Assembly: GCA_963771275.1 (NCBI GenBank) | Contig: CAVYSW010000004.1 | Location: 1 to 34,648 of the forward strand | Source of the DNA: an uncultured Gemmatimonadales bacterium | GTDB lineage: Bacteria > Gemmatimonadota > Gemmatimonadetes > Gemmatimonadales > GWC2-71-9 | Direction of reading: 5' to 3' | Length of the DNA stretch: 34,648 nt | Part shown: positions 3,067-17,778 of the stretch, in pieces | How positions within the stretch are numbered: the stretch's first letter is position 1 | Layout of the letters: every line of letters begins with the position of its first letter | Notes under the pieces: model-generated | Databases searched by the model: none | What the model was told of the DNA's origin: nothing | What the model saw: the letters and a program-made list of their open reading frames with translations, nothing else | Translations under genes and position numbers: made by a program

Positions 3067-3101
3067 TTGCGCCCATTTGGCAGCCCCGGCATACTCCGCC
3101 C
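3067..3101 (+). promoter_or_regulatory. sigma70-type promoter for a probable leaderless mnt-hepT transcript
   Basis: TTGCGC (3067-3072) - 17 nt - CATACT (3090-3095) - 6 nt - ATG 3102, no SD. Confidence 0.55.
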
Positions 3102-3518
3102 ATGAACGACGTCACGGCGGCCATTCGGGCCGTCTTCGAGCAGCGGGGAGACGGCGTGGTTTCGGTCTACCTGTTCGGCAGCCGGGCCCGCGGCGTCCCG
3201 CACAGCGAGAGCGACATAGACGTGGGCATCGTGTTCGACTACGCCGCGCTGCCCGATCGCGCCGCGCGTGCCCGTCGTGCCCTGGGACTCGCACCGCACC
3301 TGATCGCCGCCACCCACGTAAACCGCGTGGACGTCGTGGCGCTGAACGATGCCCCACCGGAGCTGGCAGCGCGCGTCATCCTGGAGGGTATCCGCCTGGT
3401 CTGCGCCGACTCCGAGGCCGACCACGCCTTCATGCGCCGGACCCTCCTGCTCGCCGCCGACCAGGCCCCGTTTCTCGAACGGGTCAGGCGGCTCAAGCTC
3501 GCGGCCATCGCCCGATGA
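3102..3518 (+). CDS. mntA: Minimal nucleotidyltransferase (MNT) antitoxin, type VII TA
   Basis: YLFGSRARG..HSESDIDVGI (GSX10DXD), VDVVALNDAPPELAARV; ATGA overlap with the HEPN gene. Confidence 0.88.
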   Translation: MNDVTAAIRAVFEQRGDGVVSVYLFGSRARGVPHSESDIDVGIVFDYAALPDRAARARRALGLAPHLIAATHVNRVDVVALNDAPPELAARVILEGIRLVCADSEADHAFMRRTLLLAADQAPFLERVRRLKLAAIAR

Positions 3519-3931
3519 CGTTCCTCGTCGAGCGCCTCGCCGATCTCCAGCGTCACTTGGATCACCTGCGCATGGTCCGCCCGCAGGTCCGCAACGCCGC
3601 CCAACTCGAGACCGACCTGTCCCTGCACAACGACGTGCTGTTCTCGCTCCTGGTGGTCTGCCAGGCCGTGATCGACATCGCGGGTGAGCTGGCCGGGCGG
3701 CGTGGCATCCGGTTCCAGGACTACGCAGGCGCGATCGGTGCGCTGCGCCAGATCGAGGGCATCCCGGCCGACCTGGCGGACGTTTTGCTTCCCCTCCCCG
3801 GGTTTCGGAACATCCTGATCCACGAGTACGTCGACCTGGACTACGGCCGCGTGCTGGAGGCGCTCGATGGCTTGGAGCCGGTCGAGCGCTTCGTGTCGGC
3901 CGTCGCGGCACTCGAAGCCGCCTCCTCATAG
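3515..3931 (+). CDS. hepT: HEPN/DUF86 ribonuclease toxin (HepT-like)
   Basis: C-terminal 138 aa of ORF 2825..3931 starting MTFLVERL; QAVIDIA and GFRNILIHEY (RX4HXY) motif. Confidence 0.88.
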   Translation: MTFLVERLADLQRHLDHLRMVRPQVRNAAQLETDLSLHNDVLFSLLVVCQAVIDIAGELAGRRGIRFQDYAGAIGALRQIEGIPADLADVLLPLPGFRNILIHEYVDLDYGRVLEALDGLEPVERFVSAVAALEAASS

Positions 3932-3942
3932 CCGTTGGCCGT

Positions 3943-4191
3943 CTAGCTGTACGCTCGCTGCAGCGCTTCCCGCCATTTGGCCTCGGGCGCCAGGGTCACC
4001 GCCTCGAGCAGCCCCACGTTTGCCAGCAGCAGCGCGAGGAGCCGGCGCCGCATCTCCGGGTACTCGGGACCCTCGAACAGGTACCCCTCCCACACCTCGA
4101 ACTTCTCCGGCGTGTAAGCATGGTACTCGTCCAGCGTGATCGGCCGGGGCTCAAGATCCGCGCGCGGGAGTTCTCCAGCGGCTTCGCTCAT
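3943..4191 (-). CDS. Small hypothetical protein resembling the Uma2 N-terminal segment
   Basis: 82 aa, GGAGG SD, ITLDEYHAYTPEKFEVWEGYL resembles the Uma2 N-terminus; no nuclease motifs. Confidence 0.65.
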   Translation of the reverse strand: MSEAAGELPRADLEPRPITLDEYHAYTPEKFEVWEGYLFEGPEYPEMRRRLLALLLANVGLLEAVTLAPEAKWREALQRAYS

Positions 4192-4436
4192 GACACCTCC
4201 GAATCACGGTGCGCCACCGCAGGCGAACGCGTCGCAGACAGCATGCGGCAGAGCAGCGACACGGTTCTCACCATCCAATCGCGCCAGGCGCGGTCCCGCG
4301 CGAGCAGGTCTTTCCGAATCCGGTGCTCTGTCTCGTGAATCTCGGCCTCGAGCGAGATCACCCGCCGCTCACCCTCTCCAATGCGCGACGGCGACCAGGA
4401 CGATTCAGACAACGCGAGCGAATCACGGGCTTCCAC
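4188..4436 (-). CDS. Small hypothetical protein (82 aa, possible coiled coil)
   Basis: Strong SD GGAGGAGG 5 nt before GTG at 4436; stop overlaps the ATG of the next ORF (ATGA). Confidence 0.5.
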   Translation of the reverse strand: MEARDSLALSESSWSPSRIGEGERRVISLEAEIHETEHRIRKDLLARDRAWRDWMVRTVSLLCRMLSATRSPAVAHRDSEVS

Positions 4437-4600
4437 GTGATCCTCCTCCGGCAAATGACTCGCACACCGTACGCTCGGCCGGCGAGTCACGCAAGCGCGT
4501 AGAAATGGTACGGGTGATATAGTCCCGCACTGAGGTGCGCACTCGGCCGAGGAGCAAAGAGGCTGCAGCGTGACGGGCGGAGCGAGCGGAGCCCGCCCAC

Positions 4601-5488
4601 TCATCCGGCGCCGAGGGACGCCACCAGTCTGGCCACGGTGTCGAAGGCACGGTCGAGGTCGAACTCCGCGAAGTCGCGCGCCCGCAGCACCGGCCGCAAC
4701 TCCGTCTCGAGCTGCGACCGCAATGCGGCGAGCCGAGTTGGAGAGACATCCACCGGCTCGCTCCCAGCCACGGCGAGCTTCCACCGAACCAGGGCAACCA
4801 ACTTGGCGTCATCCAGGCGGAGGCCCAGCCGGCGAACCGCGTGATCAATGTCGTAGAAGTCGCGGATCGCCCCTCCACGACGGGTCAGCGCGGCCCGCAG
4901 CTTCTCGGCCATGGCCTCCTCGCGCGACAGGCACGGGACGGACACCGGCGGCGCCAGCGGCGAGCCGGAAACCGGATCGAGAAGGAGTGTCCCCGCCTCG
5001 CCGAGCGCCACGGGATCGAGCAGTGGCTCGCGCAGGCTCACCTCCACCTGGATGGTTCCCTCCTCACCGCCCAACGGAGAGGTGTAGCCGAGCACGGCGA
5101 GGTACTGCGTCGAGGTGTTCGCCCCCGTGAGCGGCATCGTCACGCGGAAGCCTGGGAGCTGCCGGTCAATGCGCGCCAGGGAATTTCTCAGGGTCCGGGC
5201 GCGGCTCCGCCGCTCGCTCCGGGTCGCTTCCACCGGTGTCGGGATGGCGAAGTCGAGGTCCTCACTGAGCCGGTAGAACCCCGCGTGAACCTTGGCCAGG
5301 CAGGTACCGCCCTTGAAGACCAGCGGGCCTCCGGCCGGCGCGAGGCCTTGCAGGAGGACAGTGCAGAAGTAGTCCTTCACGATGAGCCGTGCAGGGAAGC
5401 CGGTCTCGGCAGCTGTGAAGTTCACGGCTTCCCCGAACAGCGCAGCATCGTCATGCAGCCGGAGCGGCGCGGCGTCAGGCGCGCTCAT
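4601..5488 (-). CDS. abiEii: AbiEii/AbiGii nucleotidyltransferase toxin, type IV TA
   Basis: KDYF, LVFKGGTCLAKV..FYRLSEDLDF, EAMAEKLRAALTR..AIRDFYDI motifs. Confidence 0.9.
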   Translation of the reverse strand: MSAPDAAPLRLHDDAALFGEAVNFTAAETGFPARLIVKDYFCTVLLQGLAPAGGPLVFKGGTCLAKVHAGFYRLSEDLDFAIPTPVEATRSERRSRARTLRNSLARIDRQLPGFRVTMPLTGANTSTQYLAVLGYTSPLGGEEGTIQVEVSLREPLLDPVALGEAGTLLLDPVSGSPLAPPVSVPCLSREEAMAEKLRAALTRRGGAIRDFYDIDHAVRRLGLRLDDAKLVALVRWKLAVAGSEPVDVSPTRLAALRSQLETELRPVLRARDFAEFDLDRAFDTVARLVASLGAG

Positions 5489-6275
5489 TCAGCACGACGC
5501 CCCATCGCCGATCGAGCGTTCCTCGTTTGGGCCGAGTGGGAATCCAGGGGATCAGGCTTGTGGTGGGCTCAAGCGCCCGCTCCAGCGTGCGCAGGTGTGC
5601 GGCGCCGACGCCTTCGCGCTCCAGCAGTGCGCCGATTCGGCGGATCGTGCCCGCATTCCCGTATCGCAAGGTCGCCCGAACCAACTCGTTGGCGCGGACC
5701 CGTCGTGCCGCCAGCTCGGTCCGAATCCATCCGAACGCTCGCGGCAGGCTGCCGAATCGAGACCAGTCATACACGGCGTCCACCAACGTGCGGGCGCGCG
5801 AAGAGTACGTTGCGGTCACGCCGTCCGCCGTCCGCACCTCCTCGGTATCGCCGAGCCGCCCGTCGGCCACTTTGATCAACGTCAGGGCCACGGCGCCGAC
5901 GGTTCGCGTGCCGGATATTCGGTTGTTATACGCATACACGCGGGCCGGCACTTGGGTGGTGAAGCCGTACCGGTTGAACGCGTTGGGACCGCAGATCTGC
6001 CAGCGCCCGCGGCGCTCCATCATCAGCGTGTCGAGGGCGAGGATCTCGTCAGGGCTCCACTTGCCGCCCAGAGGGAGCCGTGGCGGCACGAGGTACAGGC
6101 CCCGCCACACCCGGGCGATGAGGCCGGCTCTGGCGAGGCGGCTCAGGAGCTTCGCCTCCTGCGTGCGCGTGATCCGCAGGGCCCGCGTCAGGTCGCCGAC
6201 GCGGACGGCCCGCAGCTGCCGCATCTGGACGTAGGCCAGTAGTTGGGTTTCGAGCGGGCCCAAGGTCCGTTTCAT
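5475..6275 (-). CDS. abiEi: AbiEi antitoxin / transcriptional regulator, type IV TA
   Basis: N-terminal wHTH (LLSRLARAGLIARVWRGLYLV), AFNRYGFTTQVP, RTLVDAV; overlaps the abiEii start. Confidence 0.87.
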   Translation of the reverse strand: MKRTLGPLETQLLAYVQMRQLRAVRVGDLTRALRITRTQEAKLLSRLARAGLIARVWRGLYLVPPRLPLGGKWSPDEILALDTLMMERRGRWQICGPNAFNRYGFTTQVPARVYAYNNRISGTRTVGAVALTLIKVADGRLGDTEEVRTADGVTATYSSRARTLVDAVYDWSRFGSLPRAFGWIRTELAARRVRANELVRATLRYGNAGTIRRIGALLEREGVGAAHLRTLERALEPTTSLIPWIPTRPKRGTLDRRWGVVLNERA

Positions 6276-6450: not shown

Positions 6451-7819
6451 TTACTCGGGTGCCTTCTTCTTGATACTCGCCCACCACGCCAGCCGCTCCC
6501 CGATCGTCTTCTCGAACCCGCGGTCGGTGGGCTCATACCACTTGGCGCCCCGCAGCACCTCGGGCAGGTATTCCTGCCCCGCCGCCAGCGCCTCCGGCTC
6601 GGCGTGGTCGTAGCGGTAGCCCGCGCCGTAGCCCAGGTCCTTCATCAACGCCGTGGGCGCGTTCCGGATGTGGAGCGGCACGGGCTCGGCCGGGTGCTCC
6701 CGGGCGGCCTCCATCGCCTGGCCCCAGGCCAGGTAGATCCGGTTCGACTTGGGGGCCGTGGCCATGTAGACCACCGCCTCGGCAAGCGCCAGCTCCCCCT
6801 CCGGCGAGCCGAGGAAGTGGTACGTGTCCTTGGCGGCCAAGGCCAATGACAGCGCCCGCGGGTCCGCGAGCCCGATGTCCTCGGCCGCCATCCGCACCAC
6901 CCGCCGCGCCACGTACAGCGGGTCCTCCCCTCCCACAATCATCCGGGCGAGCCAGTACAGGGCCCCCTCCACATCGCTGCCCCGTACGGCCTTGTGGAGC
7001 GCGGAAATGACGTTGTAGTGCTCCTCCCCCGACTTGTCGTATTTCGGGAGCCGCTTGGCGAGGACGGCTTCGAGAACCTCGAGTGAAAGGGGAAAAGTGA
7101 ACAGTGAAAAGTCGGCTGCGGTGTAGGTCGCGATTCCCTCGATCGCATTCAGCACCCGGCGCGCGTCCCCATCTGCCACGCGCACGAGACGGTCCACCGC
7201 GTCACTCGGAGAGCCAAGCCTCGACGTTCGTTTCACTTTTCACTTTTCTCTTTTCACTCGCCGGCAGTCCCACCTCGGCAAACGCCCGCCGAACGATCAC
7301 CGCCAGATCCGCTTCCGTGAGGGGTTCCAGCACGTACACCTGGAGCCTGGAGAGCAGCGCCCCCGTGAGCTCGAAGCTCGGGTTCTCGGTCGTGGCGCCG
7401 ATCAGCGTGATGATGCCCTGCTCCACCCACGGCAGAAACGCGTCCTGCTGCGCCTTGTTGAACCGGTGGATCTCGTCGCAGAACATGATCGTCCCACGCC
7501 CCTCGAGCCGGAGCCGCTCCTGCGCCTGCTTGATGATCTCCCGCACCCGCGGCACGCCTTCCGTGACCGCGCTGAACGGCTCGAACACCTTGTCGGTGTG
7601 CTTGGCGATCAGGTAGGCGAGCGTGGTCTTGCCGCACCCCGGCGGGCCCCAGAAGATGATGCTCGGCACCTCGCCGCGCTCGATCGCCTGCCGGAGCGGC
7701 TTCCCCTCGCCCAGCAGGTGGCGCTGCCCCACGAACTCCGCCAGGGCTTGGGGCCGGAGCCGGGAGGCCAGGGGCTCGTGGGAGTCGGACTCGAACAGCG
7801 AGGGCTCGGAGTGGGTCAT
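6451..7819 (-). CDS. rarA: Replication-associated recombination protein A (MgsA/RarA AAA+ ATPase); one frameshift near 7205
   Basis: EPLASRLRP, Walker A GPPGCGKTT, DEIHRFNKAQQD, GATTENPSF, DGDARR, ISALHKAVRGSD, EDIGLADP, VPLHIRNAPT; joins ORFs 7202..7864 and 6451..7236. Confidence 0.95.
7082..7258. repeat. Intragenic inverted pair of GTGAAAA heptamer arrays inside rarA
   Basis: 7082-7111 GTGAAAA-like units and 7231-7258 TTTTCAC units; translated as FSLFTFPLSL and SEKRKVKSE. Confidence 0.9.
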
Positions 7820-7820
7820 G

Positions 7821-7897
7821 GGTGAACAGTAAGAAGTGAAAAGTGAAAAGTGAAAAGTGAACACGTATGGAGCGACTTTTCACTTTTCACTTTTCAC
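7821..7897. repeat. Inverted heptamer array pair at the lhgO|rarA junction
   Basis: AGTGAAA x4 plus 2 degenerate units (7821-7862), about 14 nt spacer, TTTTCAC x3 (7877-7897); supplies the lhgO C-terminus VKSEK and its TGA stop. Confidence 0.95.
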
Positions 7898-9088
7898 TCC
7901 GTCCACGACCAGGTCAGCGAAGCTCAGTGAGCACGTGAAGGCTGGCGACACCGCATTCAAGACGTGCGTGGAATTCGGGCCCGGCTCGATCACGAAGTCC
8001 ATCTCCAGCTCTCCCTTCTCCCGGTCGAACAGCTGCGCGCGGATGCCGTACTTGTCCGCCTTGACGAGGTCGTGGCTCGTGATCCGGGGCAGCATGCCGC
8101 GCGTGGCGCGCATGAACGCGGGCTTCAAGAGCCGCGGTGCCTCGGCGTGAAGGTAGTGACGAAAGCCGTTCGGATTCCGGACGTACTGCTGGAGGATCCG
8201 GCCGGTGATGGCGCCGAGGTCGCTCAGCGAAAGGTCCTCGAGCCCACGGTAGTTCTCCCGCCCGAACGCCGGCATGGCCGTGGGCCCAAAGTACACCGTG
8301 CCGGACACCGCCGTCGTGGCGTGCACGCCGAGGAATGGGAAGCGGAGGTCCGGCACGGGATAGATCAGCCCATTTACGGTGATCGGGCTCCCGGGCCGGA
8401 GCTTGTAGTAGAACCCGCGGAACGGGAGGATGCGGTAGCGCTCCCCGACCCCGAACGCGTGGGCGACCTTGTCGGCGTGCGCGCCGGCGGCGTTGATCAG
8501 GTGGCCGTAGCGGTAGGTGGTGCCGGCCGCCGTCACCGTGCGCGAGCGGGCGTCGGGCACGGCGACCTCGCCCAACCGCACCTGGACCCCGCCCGCCGTG
8601 ATCTCCTTGGCCACGTGCTCCACCACCGCCACCGGGTCCAGCACGGCCGTGGCGGGATTGTAGAGCCCGCGCCCGTCCGCCGAATGGGCGTCCGGTTCCA
8701 CGCGGCGGATCTCCGCCTCGTCGATCAGCCGGAAATCGGCGCCGTTGGCCCGCCCCCGCGCCTGCAGCGTCTCGAGCCGGCCGCTGTCTTTGCGATCGAG
8801 CGGGATGATCAGCTTCCCCACCCGCTTGATCGGCAGGCCGTGCTCGTCGCAGTACGCCGCCAGCCGCCTCCCGCCCTCGGCGCAGATCCGCCCCTTGAGC
8901 GACCCCGCGCCGTAGTAGATCCCCGAGTGGATCACCCCGGAGTTCCGGCCCGAGGCGTGCGCCGCGAGCCGCGGCTCCTTCTCGAATACGACGATCGAGG
9001 CGTCGGGGTACCGCAGCCGCAGGGCACGGGCGATGGTGAGCCCGACGATGCCGGCGCCGATTACGGCGAAATCAACGGAAGTGGGCAT
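7880..9088 (-). CDS. lhgO: L-2-hydroxyglutarate oxidase family FAD-dependent oxidoreductase
   Basis: VIGAGIVGL, EKE..LAAHASGRNSGVIHSGIYY, IYPVPDLRFPFLGVH, GIRAQ, HVLNAVSPAFT. Confidence 0.9.
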   Translation of the reverse strand: MPTSVDFAVIGAGIVGLTIARALRLRYPDASIVVFEKEPRLAAHASGRNSGVIHSGIYYGAGSLKGRICAEGGRRLAAYCDEHGLPIKRVGKLIIPLDRKDSGRLETLQARGRANGADFRLIDEAEIRRVEPDAHSADGRGLYNPATAVLDPVAVVEHVAKEITAGGVQVRLGEVAVPDARSRTVTAAGTTYRYGHLINAAGAHADKVAHAFGVGERYRILPFRGFYYKLRPGSPITVNGLIYPVPDLRFPFLGVHATTAVSGTVYFGPTAMPAFGRENYRGLEDLSLSDLGAITGRILQQYVRNPNGFRHYLHAEAPRLLKPAFMRATRGMLPRITSHDLVKADKYGIRAQLFDREKGELEMDFVIEPGPNSTHVLNAVSPAFTCSLSFADLVVDGVKSEK

Positions 9089-9591
9089 GAGTGAAAAGTG
9101 AAAAGTGAAGAGTGAAAAGGCGGGGATTCATCACGCTCCGCGATGGTTTGGTTAGTCCGTACCTTGTGGCCGCCCGCAATGTACTGCTCATGTACAAGCT
9201 ACGGTCACTGAAGGTGTGGGGTGCCGCCAGCCGGCTGGCGCGGGAGGCCTATCGGCTCACGCTCACTCGCCCCCTCGACCGGCATTTCTCGCTGGCCGAC
9301 CAGATTCGGCGGGCGGCCATCTCCATCCCGGCGAATCTCGCCGAGGGCTACGGGCTCGGCACGACGCCTCAGCTGCTCCGCTGTACCCGCATCGCACTCG
9401 GCTCGGCCTACGAGCTGCAGATCCACCTCGAGCTCGTGCGCGATCTTGAGCTCGTCGAGACCGGCAAGAGCGCGACGGTAGAGCAACTGGCGGACGAGAC
9501 GATTCGGATGCTGATCGGCATGCTGAAGGGTCTGGGACGCAAGTAGTCACCCCGCTCACCCTTTTCACTTTTCACTTTTCACTTTTCACCC
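9089..9591. mobile_element. Putative intervening element: four-helix-bundle gene bracketed by inverted heptamer arrays
   Basis: GTGAAAA x4 (9091-9118) and TTTTCAC x4 (9562-9589) fill the ZIP|lhgO junction; no transposase or target-site duplication seen, so mobility is inferred only. Confidence 0.5.
9190..9546 (+). CDS. Four helix bundle protein (23S rRNA intervening-sequence protein / Avd-like family)
   Basis: 118 aa: LKVW..A..LA...Y.LT...P....FSLADQIRRAAISIPANLAEGYG...IALGSAYEL...L.L..DL; antisense to the surrounding genes. Confidence 0.93.
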   Translation: MYKLRSLKVWGAASRLAREAYRLTLTRPLDRHFSLADQIRRAAISIPANLAEGYGLGTTPQLLRCTRIALGSAYELQIHLELVRDLELVETGKSATVEQLADETIRMLIGMLKGLGRK

Positions 9592-10308
9592 AATTCCCAC
9601 CGCCTCCACGATCTGCTTCGTCAAGAAGAACGCTCCCGCGCCCAGGAAGAACGCCACCGGCAGTCGCCACCCCCGCTTGCCCTGGAACTCCGGCACCAGG
9701 TTCGACGCCGCGACGTAGATCGTGACGCCCGCCGAGAGGGCAAGGCCGTGCTCGGTGAGCACGCCGACGGTATCGGTGAGCAGCACGCCGAGCACGGTGG
9801 CAAGGCCGAGCAGCGCGGCGCTGCCCACGGCACGGGTCGTCGACGTGCCGCCCGCCACCTGGATGCTCGAGATCGTGACGCCTTCGGGCAGCTTGTGCAG
9901 GAAGATCGCGAGGAACAGCAGCACGCCGAGCTGGTTGCTCACCGCGAACCCGCTGGCGATCGCGACCCCGTCGAAGAACGTGTGGAGCAGGAGCCCGATC
10001 AAGGCCGAGATGCCGGCCGCGTGCGACACCGAATGGGTCTCGACGCCGAAGTGGAAGTGCGGCGTGAGCGTGTGCTGGGTGAGGTGAACGAGCAGATAGC
10101 CGAGCAGGATGAACCCCGCGGCATTTGCCCCGCCAATGGACAGCGCGTGCGGCACCATCTCGGTGAGGCTCACCGCCAGCATGTAGCCCGCCCCGAACGC
10201 CACGAACCCCTCGATCACGGCGAGCCCGAACCGGGCGCTCCGCGCCACGGCGAGCCCGCCCGCGACGTTGGCGGCGGCGGCGATCAGCGCATAGAAGACG
10301 GGCGTCAT
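9586..10308 (-). CDS. ZIP family metal transporter
   Basis: Hydrophobic 240 aa from MTPVFYAL; GLLLHTFFDGVAI, AIFLHKLPEG, His-rich loop, IYVAASNLVPE; ATGA overlap with cca. Confidence 0.92.
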   Translation of the reverse strand: MTPVFYALIAAAANVAGGLAVARSARFGLAVIEGFVAFGAGYMLAVSLTEMVPHALSIGGANAAGFILLGYLLVHLTQHTLTPHFHFGVETHSVSHAAGISALIGLLLHTFFDGVAIASGFAVSNQLGVLLFLAIFLHKLPEGVTISSIQVAGGTSTTRAVGSAALLGLATVLGVLLTDTVGVLTEHGLALSAGVTIYVAASNLVPEFQGKRGWRLPVAFFLGAGAFFLTKQIVEAVGIG

Positions 10309-11604
10309 GGGGCGCTGGGCGGGGTCGCGGGCCCCGGCGGCTCCGACGCGCCCGACGGCCGCGAGGTGCGGCGCGACCGGCGCGCGGCGGGCAGCGGCAG
10401 CTCGGCCGTGATCCGCGTGGCGGCGCGGAGCAGCGCCTCCCGCGTGTTCAGCTCGGGGTGCACCAGCACGAGGTCGAGCAGAGCCTCCAGCACGATCCCG
10501 ATCTCCGGCCCCTCGGTCATCCCGATCGCAAGGACGTCGGTGCCGGTGACCGCGAGATCGCCGATGCTGAGCGGCGCGTGCGAGGCGCGGACCCGGGCGA
10601 CGACGTCCGCCAGCTCGGTCCCCCACCCTTCGGCCTGCGCGATCGCCACCAGGTCGTCCGCCGCCGGCCCGACGTCCACCAGCCACTCGCGCACCGCGAG
10701 ATCGGTCATCACCGTGGGCCAGGCATCACGGCACTCGCCGATCCGCCTGCCCGCGCTCGATCTCGGCGTTGGAGCAGCGGAGACGCGCGAGGGTGGTTGC
10801 GGGATCGGACGACAAGAACGACGTGACGAGAACGGGATCCCGCGGCATGAACCTATCCACCACTGCGAAGTCCCCTTTCACTTTTCTCTTTTCACTTTTC
10901 ACTATCTCCGGGAGCCACGACTCCAGGGCTCCAATCTCAGCCCACAATCGCACCAGCTCCGCCGGGCTCCTTGCGCCCGTCAGTCCCTTGAACCACTCGT
11001 CCCGCACCCGCTCGGCCGACAGGTGCTCGAGGCCGGCGACCTCCGCGCGCGCCGCCTCCCACGTGGCCGGCTCGATCACGAAGTGGAACCGCGCCGCGAA
11101 CCGGAGCGCGCGCACGATCCGCAGATAGTCCTCGCGGAACCGCTGGCGCGGCTCGCCCACCGCCCGGATCACCTTGGCCGCGAGGTCGCGCTCGCCGCCG
11201 AACGGGTCGCGCCACTCGTGGCGTATCGGGTGGTAGGCGATCGCGTTGATCGTGAAGTCGCGCCGGGCCAGGTCGTCCTCGAGCGCCACGCCAAATTGGA
11301 CCTCGGCGTGGCGCCCGTCGGTCCGCACGTCCTTGCGGAACGTGGTCACTTCGTGCGCCGCGCCGGTCTCGTCCATCACCGCCACCGTGCCGTGCTCCAC
11401 GCCGATCGGGATCGTCCGCCGGAACAGCCGCCGCACCACGTCTGGGGTGGCCGCCGTCGCGAGGTCGAAGTCCTTGTTCGGGATGCCGAGCAGGTTGTCC
11501 CGTACCGCGCCCCCGACGCACCACGTCGCGTGGCCGGCTTCCTCGAGTCGACGGGCGATGGCGACGACGGGGGCGGGAATCGGGAGCGAAGGCGGGAAGG
11601 TCAT
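10305..11604 (-). CDS. cca: CCA tRNA nucleotidyltransferase; one frameshift near 10750
   Basis: VGGAVRD, KDFDLAT, EVTTFR, DLARRDFTINA, EDYLRIVRALRF, LSAERVRDEW; C-terminal DLAVTGTDV...GPEIG in ORF 10305..10712. Confidence 0.92.
10875..10903. repeat. Intragenic heptamer array in cca
   Basis: mRNA GTGAAAA GTGAAAA GAGAAAA GTGAAAG, translated VKSEKRKVKG. Confidence 0.9.
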
Positions 11605-11607
11605 GGA

Positions 11608-11753
11608 AGTGAAAAGTGAAAAGTGAAAAGGAGTGAAAAGTGATAAGTGAAAAGTGAAAAGGGAGAACGGGGCCGGCGTTGACGCAGGCCGCGGAGCATG
11701 GAGCACGAATCAGCAGTAATCAGTCTTTTCACTTTTCACTTTTCACTTTTCAC
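11608..11753. repeat. Inverted heptamer array pair at the SDR|cca junction
   Basis: AGTGAAA x3 + x4 (11608-11659) and TTTTCAC x4 (11726-11753); the SDR TGA lies in the outermost unit; the cca ATG follows 3 nt after the array. Confidence 0.95.
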
Positions 11754-12520
11754 CCACATAGCACCGCCCCCCCATTCACGTTCACGATCTCCCCCGTGAT
11801 ATGCCGCCCCAGCTTCGAGCAGAGAAACACGATCGGCCCGGCGATGTCGTCCGCGGTCGCGACGCGGCGGAGCGGGATCCCGGCCTCGATCCGGCGCCGG
11901 CCCTCACCCCCGTCGGCTTGGTAGGGGAGCGCCGCCATCTCGGTGTCCACCCAGCCGGGAGCCACGGAATTGACCGTTACCTCGGGCGCCGCCTCGATGG
12001 CGAGCGATTTCACCAGGGCGATCAGCGCCCCTTTGCTGGCGGCGTAGTCGGCGTGGAACCCCTCGCCGCGCTGGCCCGCCGTGCTGGTCACGATCACGAC
12101 CGACCCGCCGGGCCGGATCACCCGCAGCACCGCGCGGCAGCCGTAGAACACCGAGTCCAGGTTCACCTGCATCGTCTCGCGCCACTGCGCGTCGCTCATC
12201 CGGGCGACTGGAACCTCCTCGGGCACCCAGATCCCGGCATTCGCCACGAAGCAGTCGAGCCCGCCGAAGTCGCGCACGACGTCCGCGACGACCCGTTCGT
12301 TGGATTCGCGCGAAGCCAGGTCGAGCTGGTAGGCCCGGAATCGGCCTCCCCCCGACCCCCTCAGCTCCCCAAGCACCCGCTCCGCATCCGCCTTCCGCGA
12401 CCGGTACGTGAACGCCACATCAGCCCCGGCCTTGGCGAATAGCATGGCCGTCGCGGCGCCGATGCCGCGGGAGCCCCCGGTGATGAGGGCGACTTTCCCG
12501 GAGAGGTCGATCAACGGCAC
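11750..12520 (-). CDS. SDR family NAD(P)-dependent oxidoreductase (FabG-like)
   Basis: TGGSRGIG, VANAGI, YAASK, VNSVAPGWVDT, ITGEIVNVNGG; GAGGAG SD before GTG 12520. Confidence 0.93.
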   Translation of the reverse strand: MPLIDLSGKVALITGGSRGIGAATAMLFAKAGADVAFTYRSRKADAERVLGELRGSGGGRFRAYQLDLASRESNERVVADVVRDFGGLDCFVANAGIWVPEEVPVARMSDAQWRETMQVNLDSVFYGCRAVLRVIRPGGSVVIVTSTAGQRGEGFHADYAASKGALIALVKSLAIEAAPEVTVNSVAPGWVDTEMAALPYQADGGEGRRRIEAGIPLRRVATADDIAGPIVFLCSKLGRHITGEIVNVNGGAVLCG

Positions 12521-12560
12521 GGGTGGTTGCTCTCCTCGCGCAGGGGCAGCTCCGTGAGTG

Positions 12561-12677
12561 AGTGAAAAGTGAAAAGTGAAAAGTGAAAAGAAGCCACTTG
12601 GCAAGCTACAGGGCCACCGGGCTGGCAACGAGAATCGTGCGGAGCGGACTTTTCACTTTTCACTTTTCACTTTTCAC
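12561..12677. repeat. Inverted heptamer array pair at the PHP phosphatase|SDR junction
   Basis: AGTGAAA x4 (12561-12588) and TTTTCAC x4 (12650-12677) abutting the TAG stop. Confidence 0.95.
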
Positions 12678-13459
12678 TAGCTCCACTTCTCGCCCTTCGC
12701 ATGCAGCCACCCACGAACACGCTCGGCGAAGCCGCCTTGGATTCGAGCTTTCGGCACGGGAACCAGCTTCCCGTCGCCAATCACCGCCCGCGGGTTCTCC
12801 ACGGTGAGCCACATGGCGGCGTCGGCGGCACCGTGCCGCTCGAGGAATCGCCGGCCGGTGGCGAGGCTGCGCCGGTCGCCGTGGTTGTCGGCGGCGAGCA
12901 CGTCCGCCAGGCCCGCCCGCAGCAGGCGGCGGGCAAGCTCCCCCCGGCTCGTGGGGCGCGTAATCTCGGTGGCGTCCACCTGGATCGCGGCGCCGACCGT
13001 GCGCCACAGATCCACCGAACGGGCCGAGCACAGGCGGTACCGCTCCGGGTGTGCGACGATCGGGACCAGCCCCTTGGAGCTGATCGCCTGGAGCACGTCG
13101 GCCACCAGGTGCCCCATCACGGACAACGGAAACTCCACAAGGTAGTAGCGCGAGCCGGCCAGCGCGTACCGCCGGTCTCCCAGCGCCTCAGCCGGGAGCG
13201 GCCGGTCCAGCATGATCTCGAAGCCTGGGTGCAACCGGATCCCCGGCGGGGCGGCCGCCTTGAGCTCCGCCAGCCGCTCGTCCCGCACGCGGATGGCGTC
13301 CTCCCCCTTGGTGGCGATCTCGCCCGCCCTGAGGTGCGGCGTCATGACGATGTCGGTGATGCCCGCCTCGGCGAGGGTCGTGAGCACCCCCACCGATTGG
13401 GCGAGGGAGCGCGAGCCGTCGTCCACCCCCGGGAGGAGGTGGGAGTGGAGGTCAATCAC
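12677..13459 (-). CDS. CpsB/CapC/YwqE family PHP protein-tyrosine phosphatase
   Basis: MIDLHSHLLPGVDDGS, VMTPH, YYLVEFP, PIVAHPERY, AADNH. Confidence 0.92.
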   Translation of the reverse strand: MIDLHSHLLPGVDDGSRSLAQSVGVLTTLAEAGITDIVMTPHLRAGEIATKGEDAIRVRDERLAELKAAAPPGIRLHPGFEIMLDRPLPAEALGDRRYALAGSRYYLVEFPLSVMGHLVADVLQAISSKGLVPIVAHPERYRLCSARSVDLWRTVGAAIQVDATEITRPTSRGELARRLLRAGLADVLAADNHGDRRSLATGRRFLERHGAADAAMWLTVENPRAVIGDGKLVPVPKARIQGGFAERVRGWLHAKGEKWS

Positions 13460-13464
13460 GGCGC

Positions 13465-13511
13465 CCCCTCTCCCACTCTGCCCCTCTCCCCCTCACCCCC
13501 TCACCCCTCAC
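13465..13511. repeat. 8-nt-period G-rich tandem repeat (mRNA GTGAGGGG/GAGAGGGG) filling the hyp|PHP junction
   Basis: CCCCTCTC CCACTCTG CCCCTCTC CCCCTCAC CCCCTCAC CCCTCAC on +; upstream TGA stop lies in the first mRNA unit. Confidence 0.8.
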
Positions 13512-13834
13512 CGGATCTCCCCCAGCCGTTGGGGCTCCGTCTCCCCCACCCATTCGCAGGCCAGCGTGATCAGGGCATCGGCGGCGAGCAGGGTGAGGGC
13601 GGTGTCGTGCGTCGGGGGGCCGGCCTTGGCGGCGGCGAGGAGATCTTCCGCGACCGCCCGGAGCTCCTCCTCGAACGGCCGCTGACGCACGCTGCACGCT
13701 GTACGGCTGTTACGCTGCACGGCGTCAGCCTCACGCTGCACGCTACACGCTGCACGCGCGGTTATGATTCGGGCCCGCAACGCCGGCGGGGCTTCCGCCA
13801 GGCGCTCATCGAGCCAGCCCTCGGGGTCCGTCAC
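13508..13834 (-). CDS. Hypothetical protein downstream of alaS, with an internal heptamer-repeat insertion
   Basis: GTGA overlap with the alaS stop; WLDERLAEAPPALRARI...ALTLLAADALITLACE helical protein. Confidence 0.75.
   Translation of the reverse strand: MTDPEGWLDERLAEAPPALRARIITARAACSVQREADAVQRNSRTACSVRQRPFEEELRAVAEDLLAAAKAGPPTHDTALTLLAADALITLACEWVGETEPQRLGEIR
13685..13757. repeat. Intragenic CACGCTG heptamer repeats
   Basis: Two blocks of CACGCTG/CACGCTA-like units; translated RAACSVQRE...TACSVRQ. Confidence 0.8.
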
Positions 13835-16557
13835 GCGCCGGCGCCGAGCGCCGCACGGACGATGTCCGGTATGCGGCGCCGGGTTTCGTCCAGCTTGGTC
13901 GGATCGCCGATCCCGCCCGAGGCGAAGTGCGGGCGCCCCCCGCCGCTCCCCCCGCTGATCGCGGCGATCGCCTTCACCAGGTCTCCGGCGCGAATGCCGC
14001 GCGAGACGAGGTCGTCCGTCACCGCCACGTGGATCCCCGGCCGCTCGCCGCCGGTGAGCAGCACCTTGATCGCCCGCTTCTGCTGCTCGCGGAACGTGTC
14101 CATCAGCATCCCGATCTGCGCCCGGTCCGACACGGGGGATTCGTCCAGCACGAGGGAAACGTCGCCCACGGCCACGGTGCTGCCGTCTGCCCCCTGCCCC
14201 CCTCCCCCTCTACGCAGCAGCTCTTCAATCTGCTTGTCCAGCCGCCGTCGCTCCTCGATCAACGACTCGATCTTCTTCACCAGATGCTCGGGGTTGGCGC
14301 GCAGCAGGTCCGACGCGGCGGCGATCCGCTCGTCGAGCTGCTTCACGAGATCGTAGGCCCCGGGGCCCGTCACCGCCTCGATGCGGCGCACGCCCGCCGC
14401 GACACCCGACTCGTGCGTGAAATGGAACAGCCCGATCTGGCCGGTGCTCCGCACGTGGGTGCCGCCGCACAGCTCGACCGAGAGCCCCGGCATGTCGACC
14501 ACGCGCACCACGTCGCCGTACTTCTCGCCGAACAGCGCCATGGCGCCCTTGGCAAGCGCCTCGCGGTACGGCAGCTCGTAGGTCGCGAGCTCCACGTTGA
14601 GCCAGATGCCGTGGTTCACCTCGGCCTCGATGCGCTTGAGCTCCGCCTCGCCGATTGGGCCGTGATGCGAGAAGTCGAACCGCAGGCGGTCGGGCGCCAC
14701 CACCGAGCCCGCCTGCCGCACGTGGTCGCCCAGCACGTCGCGCAGCGCCGCATGGACCAGGTGGGTGGCGCTGTGGTTCCGCTCGATGTCGCGGCGCCGC
14801 TGCTCGGCCACCGCCGCCTCGACCGGCGTGGGCTCGAAGTCGCCTGCGTAGGGCCCACCCACGATCTGGCGCCCTTCCGCCTTGTGGACGTCGTCGACCT
14901 GGAGCTCCCACCCCTCGCCGCGCACCACCCCGGTGTCGCTCACCTGCCCGCCCGACTCGGCGTAGAACGGATTCTCGTGCAGCACCATCTCCAGCCGGTC
15001 GTCCGCCCGGCGGAACGCCAGGATGTCGGTCTCGGCCGTGGTGGTGTCGTAGCCCACGAACTTCTGGCGCTTGCGCGGGGTCACCCGCACCCATTCTTGC
15101 CCGGTCGCACGCCGAACCCGGTCAACTATCTCCGCCTTCTCTGAGAACCTCGCGGCATCCGCACCCCGAACGTTCCGCGACCGCCGCTGCTGCTCCTCCA
15201 GCGCCAGCTCGAAGCCCGCGACGTCCACCTTCCGCCCGCGCTCGGCGGCGATCAGCTCGGTCAAGTCGAGCGGGAACCCGTACGTGTCGTACAGCTTGAA
15301 CGCGTCGGCGCCGCTCACCGCGCCGCTCGATTCCGTCAGGATCTCTTCCAGGCGCGTGAGCCCGCCCTCGATCGTCTCGAGGAAGCGCTCTTCTTCGATC
15401 CGCGTCACCTTCTCGATCTGCTCGCGCCTGGTCTTGAGCTCGGGGTAGACGTCCTCGAGCCCGTCCACCACCGCCATGGCGAGCGGCGTCAGCGTCGGCT
15501 CGGAGCGCCCCATGAGATACGCGTGGCGCACCGCGCGCCGGAGAATCCGCCGCAGCACGTAGCCGCGGCCGTCGTTGGACGGGTACACACCGTCGGCCAA
15601 CAGGAACGCCACGGCGCGCGCGTGGTCGGCGAGCACGCGGAAGCCGGCACCGAGCGGGCCGGGATCGTAGCGGCGGCCCATCACCTCTTCCGCCCGCCGG
15701 ATGATCGGCATGAACAGGTCGGTGTGGAAGTTCGAGTCCACGCCCTGCATCACTGACGCGATCCGCTCGAGGCCGGCCCCGGTGTCCACCGACGGCGCCG
15801 GGAGCGGCGTCCGCGAGCCATCCTTCGCCTGGTCGAACTGCATGAAGACCAGGTTCCAGATCTCCAGGAGCTGCCCTGATTCCGCCAGCTGGACGAACTG
15901 GGGGAGGGTGGGCGGATGAACGATGGCCGATGGCCGACCGCCGACAGCCGATTGCCGATGGCCGATGGCCGAATCAGGGGGGGGGCTGGGTCGGCTATCG
16001 GCCATCGGCCATCGGCCAACGTCGACATAGATCTCCGAGCACGGCCCACACGGCCCGGTGTCCCCCATCTGCCAGAAGTTGTCCTTGTCGCCCAGGCCGT
16101 AGATCCGGGATTCGGCGATGCCCGTCACCGCGCGCCACAGCTTCCGCGCCTCGTCGTCGGAGTGGTGCACGGTGACGTAGATGCGGTCGGGATGGATGCC
16201 GAGGTACTGCTCCGACGTCACCCACTCCCAGCCGAACGCGATCGCGTCCTTCTTGAAGTAGTCGCCGAACGAGAAGTTGCCCAGCATCTCGAAGAACGTG
16301 TGGTGCCGGGCGGTGTGCCCCACCTGTTCCAGGTCGTTGTGCTTGCCGCCGGCGCGGACGCACTTCTGGACGGTGACGGCGCGGGTGTAGTCGCGGTGCT
16401 CGAGACCCTGGAACACGCGCTTGAACTGCACCATGCCGGCATTGGTGAACAGCAGCGTCGGGTCCCCGTGGGGCACGAGCGACGCCGAGGCCACGGGCCG
16501 GTGGCGGCGCGCGGCGAAGAAGTCGACGAACGACTGGCGGATGGCGGAAGCGTGCAT
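13831..16557 (-). CDS. alaS: Alanine--tRNA ligase
   Basis: DPTLLFTNAGMVQFK, RHHTFFEMLGNFSFGDYFK, GPCGPCSEI, EIWNLVFMQ, NHSATH, ELCGGTHV, GVRRIEAVTG, GGGRP. Confidence 0.99.
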   Translation of the reverse strand: MHASAIRQSFVDFFAARRHRPVASASLVPHGDPTLLFTNAGMVQFKRVFQGLEHRDYTRAVTVQKCVRAGGKHNDLEQVGHTARHHTFFEMLGNFSFGDYFKKDAIAFGWEWVTSEQYLGIHPDRIYVTVHHSDDEARKLWRAVTGIAESRIYGLGDKDNFWQMGDTGPCGPCSEIYVDVGRWPMADSRPSPPPDSAIGHRQSAVGGRPSAIVHPPTLPQFVQLAESGQLLEIWNLVFMQFDQAKDGSRTPLPAPSVDTGAGLERIASVMQGVDSNFHTDLFMPIIRRAEEVMGRRYDPGPLGAGFRVLADHARAVAFLLADGVYPSNDGRGYVLRRILRRAVRHAYLMGRSEPTLTPLAMAVVDGLEDVYPELKTRREQIEKVTRIEEERFLETIEGGLTRLEEILTESSGAVSGADAFKLYDTYGFPLDLTELIAAERGRKVDVAGFELALEEQQRRSRNVRGADAARFSEKAEIVDRVRRATGQEWVRVTPRKRQKFVGYDTTTAETDILAFRRADDRLEMVLHENPFYAESGGQVSDTGVVRGEGWELQVDDVHKAEGRQIVGGPYAGDFEPTPVEAAVAEQRRRDIERNHSATHLVHAALRDVLGDHVRQAGSVVAPDRLRFDFSHHGPIGEAELKRIEAEVNHGIWLNVELATYELPYREALAKGAMALFGEKYGDVVRVVDMPGLSVELCGGTHVRSTGQIGLFHFTHESGVAAGVRRIEAVTGPGAYDLVKQLDERIAAASDLLRANPEHLVKKIESLIEERRRLDKQIEELLRRGGGGQGADGSTVAVGDVSLVLDESPVSDRAQIGMLMDTFREQQKRAIKVLLTGGERPGIHVAVTDDLVSRGIRAGDLVKAIAAISGGSGGGRPHFASGGIGDPTKLDETRRRIPDIVRAALGAGA
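15919..16020. repeat. In-frame palindromic GCCGATG heptamer insertion in alaS
   Basis: About 8 GCCGA(TG) units (15919-15974), G9-containing loop, 4 (CA)TCGGC units (15991-16016); translated GRWPMADSRPSPPPDSAIGHRQSAVGGRPSAIV. Confidence 0.92.
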
Positions 16558-16587
16558 AGAGGAGGAACTTAACTAGCACCGGGAGAA

Positions 16588-16672
16588 AGTGAAAAGTGAA
16601 AAGTGAAAGGTGAAAAGGGAACCCGAGACCGGGGGGGGGACCACTTTTCACGTTTCACTTTTCACTTTTCAC
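16588..16672. repeat. Inverted heptamer array pair at the wecB|alaS junction
   Basis: AGTGAAA-type x4 (16588-16615), spacer with G9, TTTTCAC-type x4 (16645-16672). Confidence 0.95.
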
Positions 16673-16681
16673 TCAGCCCCA

Positions 16682-17778
16682 CTACCGATACTCTGCCCCG
16701 TCGAGAATCACTCCCACAATCCGCTCCGCCGTCTTCCCGTCCCACCGCTCGATCTGCGCTTTGCGGTAACTGGAACTGGCGAGGGCCTCGCGCGCCGCGG
16801 TCTGGAGTGCCTCCTGGGTCGGGGCAACCAAGCGATTCGTCCCGTGGGTGCATGTAACCGGGCGCTCGGTGTTGGGTCGGACGGTCAGGCACGGGACGCC
16901 GAGGAACGAGGTCTCCTCCTGCAGACCGCCCGAGTCCGTGATCACCAACGCCGCCTGCTCCACGAGGCCCAGCATGTCGAGGTAGCCGATCGGGTCCATG
17001 AGCCGGAGGTGGCCACTGGAGGGAGCTTCGAAGCCCAGCCTGTCGATTCGGTCGCGTGTGCGGGGATGCACGGGGAACAGCACCGTCAGGTCGCGGCCGA
17101 GGACCTCCAAGGCACCCAGGAGCCCCCGCAGGGCCACCGGCTCATCCACGTTGGCCGGACGGTGCAAGGTCACCACGGCATACCGCTGACCGCTAACCGC
17201 TAACCGCATCGGCGTGTTTCGCTCCCGCGCAGCGGGCAGGGCGTGGACGAGCGAGTCGATCATGATGTTGCCGACAAAGTGGATGCGGTCCGCGGGAACC
17301 CCTTCGGCCTTGAGGTTCGCGTCGGCATCCCGCGAGGGCGTGAACAGGAGATCCGCCAGGCGGTCCGTGACCACGCGGTTGATCTCCTCCGGCATGGTCC
17401 AATCGCGGCTGCGGAGACCAGCCTCGACGTGCCCCACACGGATGCCGAGCTTGGCGGCGACGAGGGCCGCAGCGACGGTCGAGTTGACGTCGCCGTAGAC
17501 CAGGATCACGTCGGGCTTCTGCTCGAGCAGCACGGGCTCGAGGCGCTGCATGATCAGCGCGGTCTGCTGCGCGTGCGAGCCAGAGCCCACGTCCAGATTG
17601 CAGTCAGGTGCCGGGATCCCCAGCTCGTCGAAGAACGACCCTGACATCTCGGGGTCGTAGTGCTGGCCGGTGTGGAGGATGACGTGCCGCGCATCAGAGC
17701 GCCCCGCGAGCGGCGGGCCAGCGGGGCGAGCTTCATGAAGTTGGGGCGGGCGCCGACGACCGAGAGGAGGGTCGTCAT
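16682..17778 (-). CDS. wecB: UDP-N-acetylglucosamine 2-epimerase (non-hydrolysing); frameshift near 17712
   Basis: VVGARPNFMKLAP, HTGQHYD, VYGDVNST, HVEAGLRS, MPEEINR, VTLHRPANVD, TDSGGLQEE, TERP. Confidence 0.95.
17182..17207. repeat. Short intragenic GCGGTTA heptamer repeat in wecB
   Basis: mRNA GCGGTTA GCGGTTA GCGGTCA GCGGT, translated RLAVSGQR. Confidence 0.7.

What the first reader, a model, noticed from the sequence alone, without database searches (positions are those of the whole stretch)
15919..16020. A different heptamer (GCCGATG) forms an in-frame palindromic insertion in essential alaS
Seen: about 100 nt, 4 units / C9-containing loop / about 8 complementary units on the mRNA, between GPCSEIYVD and EIWNLVFMQ, with the frame intact. 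Known: this segment of AlaRS is a length-variable loop. The period-7 inverted design is the same as in the GTGAAAA arrays but the unit sequence differs, which suggests the period and hairpin, not the sequence, define the family. The loop of the wecB|alaS pair also holds a 9-base G/C run (16631-16639).
Basis: partly seen in the sequence, partly recalled or inferred. Interest (0 to 1): 0.7.

Follow-up and report, generated by a model that had tools for sequence, protein, structure and literature searches.

The report
Rewritable heptamer-repeat slot inside alaS
A hairpin of 7-base repeats sits in frame in a floppy loop of the essential alanyl-tRNA synthetase, and related bacteria refill the same loop with their own repeat units, often the units that bracket a small four-helix-bundle gene in the same genome, which points to an unexplained repeat-copying system.

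Summary
Confirmed. Window 16020-15919 (alaS, minus strand) holds 4 GCCGATR units, an 18-nt spacer with C9, and 7.4 complementary units. The frame is open and the stem is 31 bp (z -7.3). Contigs from two other DNA studies span it without gaps. The net gain over the nearest congener is 69 nt, because this loop is an old slot: 26 of 110 family loops carry period-7/8 tracts of 20 different units (control periods 0). The unit is genome-specific (7 of 8 tested) and within one mismatch of a unit flanking a four-helix-bundle (TIGR02436) gene of the same genome in 8 of 13, against 9% across genomes. This genome has 199 such arms; 51 of 55 close pairs point inward, and 15 of those cannot base-pair. Period and polarity therefore define the family, not the hairpin. 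Best reading: a selfish repeat system, partnered with the four-helix-bundle protein, copies about 4-unit arms into tolerant sites, and the insert is translated as a disordered loop. The writer is inferred; no reverse transcriptase was found and no RNA data exist. The scan noted such cassettes and alaS/valS heptamer inserts before on other DNA. I found no paper on slot rewriting.

The parts
13831..16557 (-). alaS, alanine-tRNA ligase, 908 aa, host gene
   Evidence: TIGR00344 850 bits; solved relatives such as 3HXU match residues 4-188 and 227-350 and leave the loop unaligned
15991..16020 (-). L arm (first on the mRNA): 4 units GCCGAT(G/A), family F2; occupies the slot right after V-D that relatives fill with other units
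15973..15990 (-). 18-nt spacer with C9 on the mRNA (G9 at 15977-15985); unique in the genome
15921..15972 (-). R arm (second on the mRNA): 7.4 complementary units; pairs with the L arm in a 31-bp stem
14187..14209 (-). second, weaker G-rich arm in the C-terminal linker of alaS; G003 has an 8-mer arm at the same place
9166..9546 (+). four-helix-bundle gene (TIGR02436 / PF05635), one of four in the genome; its own arms are family F1 (GTGAAAA). The paralogue with F2 arms, matching the alaS insert, is at G000:C3:424155-424469
9090..9119 (+). L arm of the four-helix-bundle cassette (F1)
9561..9589 (+). R arm of the four-helix-bundle cassette (F1)
16586..16673 (.). F1 arm pair between wecB and alaS, spacer with G9 at 16631-16639
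17182..17207 (-). single in-frame arm (F2-like) inside wecB; G003 has a different arm here, G004 none
7231..7258 (-). L arm (F1) inside rarA; with the arm at 7082-7112 it encloses about 40 codons of conserved host sequence
7082..7112 (-). R arm (F1) inside rarA
10876..10903 (-). single in-frame L arm (F1) inside the CCA-adding enzyme gene; G003 has an unrelated unit here
11630..11753 (.). 124-nt arm-spacer-arm block with a second copy at G000:C10:830032-830155 in unrelated flanks; abuts an older arm at 11607-11630
7822..7898 (.). intergenic F1 arm pair (rarA | lhgO)
12561..12678 (.). intergenic F1 arm pair (SDR | cpsB-like)

Best explanation
The insert is one arm pair of a polarised short-repeat system partnered with four-helix-bundle (FHB; TIGR02436/PF05635, S23p/Avd-like) genes. 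SHOWN: (1) Arms are about 4 units of 7-9 nt with a fixed polarity: the L form comes first on the sense strand, and pairs point inward. (2) FHB genes sit between an L and an R arm, each paralogue with its own unit. (3) Arms are depleted about tenfold inside genes and survive there only in a few loops; this AlaRS loop is one of them. (4) The loop is a persistent slot: relatives carry arms at the same place, often at the same loop length, but made of their own genome's units, frequently the unit flanking one of their FHB genes. INFERRED: (5) Arms are copied in trans over or beside existing arms by short-patch DNA copying with host polymerases (no RT needed). The FHB pentamer is the likely unit-specific factor that binds the arm as RNA or single-stranded DNA. 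(6) In alaS only events that keep the frame survive, and the product is an ordinary AlaRS with a disordered 23-residue-longer surface loop, neutral or slightly costly. In this lineage the L slot was refilled with GCCGATR units and an R arm was added, which gives the hairpin.
For: Genome: 199 period-7 arrays against 5-29 at periods 5, 8, 10, 11, 13. 51 of 55 close pairs are L then R and none R then L, including 15 of 16 pairs of different families. Of 192 classified arms, gene 3' ends on the sense strand carry an L arm 102 times and an R arm 19 times. 16 of 199 arrays are gene-internal although 77% of the genome is (own gene caller). All 4 FHB genes over the cut-off are bracketed, each by a different one of the four largest unit families. 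Family: 18 of 30 best FHB loci have arms on both sides, control periods 0 of 90; 6 of 30 in other lineages. FHB tree: 10 of 10 armed members of one 16-row clade have 8/9-mers, and 27 of 29 armed rows outside it have 7-mers (SH-aLRT 85, weak). alaS loop: 26 of 110 with tracts, 20 distinct units, 0 at periods 5, 10, 11. The loop unit occurs elsewhere in its own genome in 7 of 8 cases and is absent or rarer in most others tested. It is within 1 mismatch of an own FHB-flank unit in 8 of 13 genomes against 9% off the diagonal, 0 of 20000 permutations. 9 of 9 window sites that could be aligned on both flanks hold an arm in a congener, none with the identical unit (read by eye). 400 kb around alaS: 1 array in FHB-less G135 against 42 in G091 with 8 FHB genes. 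AlphaFold: residues 181-217 coil, pLDDT 43-61 for 181-210, 270 of 352 residues at 90 or more. In print: a 4-unit GGGAATC arm overlaps the start of XCC0516, the FHB of structure 2GSC (PMC4692102 supplement), and GACAGAT heptamers precede the Coxiella S23p ORF (PMC4990558).
Against: No copying activity is shown, and an FHB has no known catalytic domain. RVT_1 was not found in G000 (96.7% complete) nor in 15 of 18 genomes. FHB presence predicts a loop tract only weakly: median 4 vs 3 genes (p 0.02, kin not independent), and 2 of 15 FHB-less genomes still have a tract against 24 of 100 (not significant). 5 of 13 genomes fail the flank-unit match. Family F5 (17 arrays) has no cognate FHB in G000. 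G019's loop unit was not found elsewhere in its genome. The alaS insert is F2 although the nearest FHB gene (about 6.4 kb away) has F1 arms; clustering around the cognate FHB holds for F1 (11 of 15 within 10 kb) and F4 (7 of 10) but not for F2 or F3. The alaS flank tree cannot exclude a single ancient origin of the slot. Co-inheritance of gene and arms would also give the tree pattern. Retention of the hairpin in mRNA and protein is untested (RNA runs share only 5-6% of words).
Confidence: 0.5

Rival explanations
1. Cassette-footprint model. FHB cassettes or small arm-spacer-arm blocks move as units (MITE-like), land by recombination at existing arms and later lose their interior. Slots and mixed pairs are stacked footprints; no unit-by-unit writing is needed.
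For: One 124-nt arm-spacer-arm block is duplicated at unrelated flanks (83% spacer identity) with a third diverged copy, and the window copy abuts an older arm. Nested arms of different families occur. The model explains the FHB-flank match. The Coxiella IVS is such a cassette (PMC4990558).
Against: Only 1 pair of the 51 spacers has a clear twin, the alaS spacer is unique, and spacers do not match FHB cassette interiors. In rarA and ksgA the two arms enclose conserved host codons. A 0.5-kb intermediate in alaS would be lethal unless it kept the frame open. No convincing target-site duplication is visible at the alaS insert.
Confidence: 0.22
2. Neutral model. Arms arise by replication slippage and hairpin-guided template switching, homogenise by gene conversion and are filtered by selection. 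FHB genes are passengers that insert at arm-rich safe sites.
For: Heptamer excess has been attributed to polymerase slippage (hypothesis quoted in PMC4692102). Tracts in alaS cluster at four tolerant spots only. Unit gradients inside single arms look like slippage. 36 of 51 pairs are complementary.
Against: It does not explain fixed polarity in non-complementary pairs (15 of 16), the match of loop units to FHB-flank units (8 of 13 vs 9%), unit class following the FHB clade, replacement by unrelated units at constant loop length (22 loops of 45 aa), or near absence of arrays in the FHB-less stretch (one genome).
Confidence: 0.17
3. Regulatory model. Arms are selected RNA elements (FHB binding sites or RNase III stems) that tune transcripts; the alaS hairpin lowers or regulates AlaRS output.
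For: Strong placement at gene 3' ends on the sense strand. The 31-bp stem exceeds the 28-bp Coxiella IVS stem that RNase III cuts at the first heptamer (PMC4990558). Geobacter paired arms were proposed as regulator sites (PMC2700814).
Against: Neither unit, orientation nor hairpin is conserved at the alaS site, even within the genus; 84 of 110 loops have no tract. Target genes are functionally mixed. L units contain stop triplets, which alone could bias them to gene ends.
Confidence: 0.08
4. RNA-level removal. The hairpin is spliced out or bypassed by the ribosome, so mature AlaRS lacks the insert.
For: Stable stem; kinship with rRNA intervening sequences; one relative (G137, 68% complete) has a frameshift in this loop beside an 8-mer tract.
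Against: 26 of 27 tract-bearing loops are in frame; most have one arm and cannot form the stem; no Rfam match in 6500-17700; IVS excision is not followed by re-ligation (recalled), which would destroy an mRNA.
Confidence: 0.03

Closest known systems
Convergent heptamer repeat pairs of Xanthomonas (GGGAATC) and Nostoc (GGGGAYT); PMC4692102, passages and supplement rows seen
   Same: About 4 units per array, pairs in convergent orientation, placed just after stops on the coding strand, 7-11% intragenic in Xanthomonas; one array overlaps the start of the FHB gene XCC0516.
   Different: Studied as one G-quadruplex-forming unit per species; the main text has no occurrence of XCC0516, four-helix, S23 or intervening. 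Here there are several non-G4 unit families per genome, mixed pairs, and unit replacement at orthologous coding loops.
Paired hepta/octanucleotide multicopy sites of Geobacter metallireducens; PMC2700814, passages seen
   Same: 3-5 tandem 7/8/9-nt units on opposite strands at variable distance, several classes in one genome, some copies inside genes, absent from a congener.
   Different: Interpreted as binding sites of IHF/HU-type global regulators; no FHB term was found in the 12 of 19 supplement files searched.
ORF-bearing 23S rRNA intervening sequences (S23p / PF05635), e.g. Coxiella; PMC4990558, passages seen
   Same: An FHB gene in the loop of a terminal stem that contains heptamer repeats of variable number; same protein family as window 9166-9546.
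   Different: IVS lie in rRNA and are cut out by RNase III; the alaS insert lies in mRNA, carries no ORF and keeps the frame.
Rickettsia palindromic elements and cyanobacterial STRR/SDR repeats (recalled, papers not seen)
   Same: Repeats tolerated in frame in surface loops of housekeeping proteins; STRR are heptamer arrays.
   Different: RPE and SDR are copies of one conserved sequence; here the sequence changes between genomes while position, period and polarity persist.
Diversity-generating retroelements (Avd + RT); PMC10053308, passages seen
   Same: PF05635 is structurally homologous to Avd; a target region is replaced in place from a template held elsewhere.
   Different: No RVT_1 gene found in G000; no TR/VR pair was looked for; content is tandem repeat, not adenine-mutagenised coding sequence.

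Membership tests
Polarised heptamer repeat pairs (Xanthomonas / Geobacter type) | Genome-wide excess of short period-7 arrays of about 4 units | tested here: met
   199 arrays against 5-29 at other periods; median 4.3 units
Polarised heptamer repeat pairs (Xanthomonas / Geobacter type) | Neighbouring arrays in convergent orientation, mostly intergenic and near gene 3' ends | tested here: met
   51 of 55 pairs L then R, 16 of 199 gene-internal; 102 vs 19 at stops
Polarised heptamer repeat pairs (Xanthomonas / Geobacter type) | G-quadruplex-forming unit (Xanthomonas/Nostoc subtype) | tested here: not met
   the unit GCCGATR has no G3 tract (sequence)
S23p-bearing rRNA intervening sequence | Located in a 23S/16S rRNA helix | tested here: not met
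   lies in the alaS coding sequence; no Rfam hit in 6500-17700
S23p-bearing rRNA intervening sequence | PF05635 ORF inside the stem | tested here: not met
   the alaS spacer is 18 nt; met only for the separate cassette at 9090-9589
S23p-bearing rRNA intervening sequence | Excision by RNase III | not testable with these tools
   no RNA run of this organism
Rickettsia palindromic element | In-frame palindromic insert in a surface loop of a conserved protein | tested here: met
Rickettsia palindromic element | Full-length copies of one conserved element elsewhere in the genome | tested here: not met
   only the arms recur; the spacer is unique
MITE / REPIN | Whole element (ends plus interior) present in several copies | tested here: not met
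   not for the alaS insert; met for one 124-nt block elsewhere
MITE / REPIN | Target-site duplication and a cognate transposase | tested here: inconclusive
   no convincing duplication by eye; no empty allele among close contigs; transposases not searched
Diversity-generating retroelement | Reverse transcriptase gene | tested here: not met
   PF00078 not found in G000; found in 3 of 18 genomes
Diversity-generating retroelement | Avd-like four-helix-bundle accessory protein | tested here: met
   PF05635/TIGR02436, 4 copies; matches the 5-chain structure 2GSC
Phase-variable contingency locus | Unit-number variation switching the frame among close strains | tested here: not met
   0 gaps in two spanning contigs (contigs drop rare variants); 26 of 27 tract-bearing loops in frame

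The most novel reading that the evidence does not exclude
Four-helix-bundle (S23p/Avd-like) pentamers are the unit-specific factors of a widespread, RT-free repeat-writing system. Each paralogue recognises its own 7-9-nt unit and drives copying of about four units, in a fixed polarity, over older arms across the chromosome. Loops of essential proteins such as AlaRS are thereby repeatedly rewritten with whatever unit the resident paralogue carries. This would give the protein family a function and explain the long-noted excess of heptamer repeats in bacteria.
Probability: 0.35. Interest if true: 0.85.

Novelty: new variant of a known kind. Interest (0 to 1): 0.55.

Why it matters
Heptamer arrays (STRR, Xanthomonas and Geobacter pairs) and the four-helix-bundle / 23S-IVS protein are two long-standing unexplained features of bacterial genomes. 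This loop links them in a way that can be tested: the unit found in an essential gene can be predicted from the unit flanking a resident four-helix-bundle gene, and this genome offers four paralogue-unit pairs for a direct binding matrix. It also shows a route by which protein loops change sequence in jumps while keeping frame and length. If the neutral model is right, the finding is an ordinary tolerated repeat insertion.

Tried and rejected
Assembly artefact: rejected. Protein-level conserved insert: rejected. G/C9 run as family signature: rejected, 2 of 51 spacers; two runs 650 bp apart is more than 23 runs per genome would give by chance and stays unexplained. RT-based writer: RVT_1 not found. 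Spacers as remnants of FHB cassettes: only 3 marginal scores, at or just above the shuffle maximum, nothing convincing. A common 7-nt register across unit families: inconclusive, 8 of 27 foreign units in register against about 4 expected, and one between-family junction. A shared R-N-Y-G core in units: 196 of 199 match in one orientation or the other, but so do 79% of random heptamers and 121 match both ways, so it was not used. Polar growth of arms: boundaries equally sharp at both ends, outer units slightly more perfect (0.94 vs 1.26 mismatches, p 0.02), not used. Counting independent origins on an alaS tree: 93 columns, 66 of 107 forks open, one origin not excluded. FHB count against loop tract: weak. 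The 124-nt block was not found in 130 family genomes beyond short, weak hits. The backwards-read control of the pattern searches is uninformative for tandem units, because a reversed unit can be a rotation of the same array. No complex prediction was run. The 2007 survey of simple repeats was not held and is cited only second-hand.
Full report
1. Observation. The window belongs to a Gemmatimonadales genome: the closest named alaS relatives are Gemmatimonadales, and G000 has 3.86 Mb in 11 contigs and is 96.7% complete. alaS runs 16557-13831. Bases 16020-15919 encode V180-V213 between GPCSEIYVD and EIWNLVFMQ without a stop. On the mRNA there are four GCCGAT(G/A) units, an 18-nt spacer with C9, and 7.4 complementary units. 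They fold into a 31-bp stem (-73.3 kcal/mol, z -7.3, 0 of 200 shuffles). The period-7 score of 27 compares with at most 11 in 1000 codon shuffles of alaS. Contigs from two other DNA studies span the insert with no gap. Solved AlaRS structures align on both sides and leave the segment out. AlphaFold models residues 181-217 as coil with pLDDT 43-61 over 181-210, while 270 of 352 residues score 90 or more. Low confidence there also reflects the missing alignment depth, so 'disordered' is a prediction.

2. The genome. There are 199 period-7 arrays at score 11 or more, against 5-29 at periods 5, 8, 10, 11 and 13; at score 14, period 9 adds 43. 192 arrays fall into six unit families; the alaS insert belongs to the largest, F2 (56 arrays). 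I fixed the L orientation of each family from complementary pairs and then tested pairs of different families: 15 of 16 are L then R, with 3-4 mismatches per unit between the arms, so they cannot pair. In all, 51 of 55 close pairs are L then R and none R then L. Arms have a median of 4.3 units. An L arm lies at a gene 3' end on the sense strand 102 times, an R arm 19 times. Only 16 of 199 arrays are gene-internal, against 77% of the genome (my own gene caller, and 4 of the 16 are unclassified). In-frame arms also sit in ftsK (the same F2 hairpin type), a Ser/Thr kinase, pdxA, ksgA, wecB and cca, and rarA has two. In rarA and ksgA the L and R arms enclose conserved host codons, so arms can be placed singly. 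All four four-helix-bundle (FHB) genes over the TIGR02436 cut-off lie between an L and an R arm, each of a different family, F1-F4. The F2-armed paralogue is at C3:424155.

3. The loop in relatives. I obtained 118 loop regions from 117 of the 118 family genomes with an alaS match. 110 matched my motif: 26 carry a period-7 (17) or period-8 (9) tract at score 10 or more, and none scores even 8 at periods 5, 10 or 11. Of the 8 left over, 6 have variant motifs and no tract, 1 is cut by a contig end, and 1 (G137) is frameshifted beside an 8-mer tract. The tracts comprise 20 distinct units in 8 single-linkage classes, mostly 27-35 nt long and starting 4-13 nt after the invariant Asp codon. 22 loops are exactly 45 aa. 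The same-genus G004 has an 8-mer arm in a 45-aa loop, so the net gain in the window is 69 nt. In 43 long loci, the loop (4.3 kb in sum) had tracts in 17, while 88 kb of other alaS sequence had 19 tracts, nearly all at three other spots. None of 66 non-Gemmatimonadota loops had a period-7 tract (period 8 not tested). The flank tree is too weak to count origins.

4. Whose units? Three-unit patterns taken from five loops were counted in the same five genomes: G017 25 matches (others 2, 0, 0, 0), G020 7 (others 0), G134 39 (1, 0, 0, 0), G056 60 (1, 0, 0, 0), and G019 2, both in the loop itself (matches overlap). In 25 genomes the window's unit matched in 6 (73 times in G000), G004's 8-mer in 4 (none in G000) and G122's 8-mer in 6. 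So 7 of 8 loop units recur in their own genome. I then compared loop units with arms around FHB genes for 13 of the 26 tract-bearing genomes, using 61 of their 73 FHB matches. 8 of 13 lie within one mismatch of an own flank unit, against 9% for other genomes (0 of 20000 permutations); exact identity was 2 of 13 vs 2% (p 0.05). At 14 arm sites of the window, 9 could be aligned on both flanks to G003 or G004. All 9 hold an arm in a congener, none with the identical unit, and some with an unrelated one (cca, alaS loop). Two FHB flanks aligned on one side show G003's unit, two sites in changed gene context show none, and one did not align (read by eye). These are persistent slots with changing content.

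5. The FHB link. 18 of 30 best FHB loci of the family have arms on both sides (23 on at least one), with control periods 0 of 90. In other lineages the figures are 6 and 12 of 30. Unit class follows the FHB tree (10 of 10 8/9-mers in one clade, 27 of 29 7-mers outside; support 85, 107 columns). 400 kb around alaS hold 1 array in G135 (no FHB found) and 42 in G091 (8 FHB) (one genome each). Against: FHB number predicts a loop tract only weakly, and 2 of 15 FHB-less genomes have one. F5 has no cognate gene. Local clustering holds for F1 and F4 but not F2 or F3. No RT was found.

6. Mechanism. I favour (0.5) copying of about 4-unit arms over or beside older arms, with the FHB pentamer as unit-specific factor and host polymerases doing the synthesis; selection lets only frame-keeping events persist in alaS, where the insert is translated. 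Shown are polarity, slot persistence, unit replacement and the unit-FHB match. The writer, its substrate and translation of the insert are inferred. Rivals are stacked footprints of mobile blocks (0.22; one 124-nt block is indeed duplicated), neutral slippage with conversion (0.17), regulatory RNA sites (0.08) and RNA-level removal (0.03).

7. What is known. PMC4692102 (passages; supplement rows; term check of the main text) describes convergent GGGAATC pairs with the same placement and lists a 4-unit array at XCC0516, the FHB of structure 2GSC, without naming that gene or family in the main text. PMC2700814 (passages; 12 of 19 supplement files searched; the alignments in its figures were not seen and may bear on this) describes paired 7/8-mer sites, some inside genes. 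PMC4990558 (passages) shows heptamers before the S23p ORF of an rRNA intervening sequence. PMC10053308 (passages) links PF05635 to Avd. bioRxiv 10.1101/2024.02.27.582315 (passages) finds the domain in rRNA insertions of CPR bacteria. RPE, STRR and SDR are recalled, not read. Ten full-text searches returned no paper on FHB-armed repeats refilling coding loops; most subscription papers are outside that library. Earlier notes of this scan on other DNA report FHB cassettes with heptamer arms, a heptamer hairpin in an Omnitrophota alaS and repeated hits on a valS loop. Two look-ups for unit replacement at orthologous slots returned nothing.

8. Verdict. Real, and a variant of a described but unexplained repeat class. 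The in-frame hairpin alone is ordinary. The new part is the evidence that the loop is refilled with genome-specific units that match resident FHB flanks, and that polarity holds without pairing. Interest 0.55.

Noticed in passing
window 7205 (rarA) and about 10740 (cca): Both genes are split by frameshifts that lie outside the repeat arms; the G003 orthologues are intact. Probably assembly indels, not heptamer slippage.
   Followed up: partly
window 11630-11753; G000:C10:830032-830155; G000:C6:13474-13598: A 124-nt arm-spacer-arm block in two clear copies (83% spacer identity) and one diverged copy, in unrelated flanks; not found in 130 family genomes. Candidate young mobile element.
   Followed up: partly
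L251:380-990 (G000:C9:285180-285790): A frameshifted GxxExxY (TIGR04256) gene with 9-mer-like arms lies between two copies of a 26-nt direct repeat, the second of which looks like a tRNA 3' end (tRNA judged by eye).
   Followed up: no
window 29897-30162: Period-9 arms and a 106-nt duplication after the exosortase-associated genes; the genome has 43 period-9 arrays.
   Followed up: no
window 13464-13512 and 13687-13757: An 8-mer pyrimidine arm and a 10-unit F3 tract overlap the ends or body of the 108-aa ORF next to alaS, which has no family match.
   Followed up: partly
L102, L105, L114, L117, L121, L131, about 54 aa after GPCSE: The conserved PLPAPS motif of AlaRS is encoded by a three-unit period-7 run in 6 of 43 loci; either codon coincidence or repeat-driven recoding of a conserved segment.
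   Followed up: no
G056:C49:12653, G093:C75:4976, G091:C1:1925524, G137:C4:13808: A four-helix-bundle gene lies within about 3 kb of alaS in several family genomes, and the alaS neighbourhood is the densest arm region of G000 (17 of 199 arrays in this 35-kb contig).
   Followed up: no
G091 400-kb stretch, offsets 293588 and 303776: Single arms drift stepwise from one unit to another along their length, as if extended or overwritten from one end.
   Followed up: partly
window 2418-6275: Cluster of Uma2 endonuclease, MntA/HepT-like pair and AbiEii-type pair, without period-7 arms above threshold.
   Followed up: no
L222 (G023 four-helix-bundle gene): The arms around this gene appear in the opposite polarity (R upstream, L downstream) to the other loci.
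   Followed up: no
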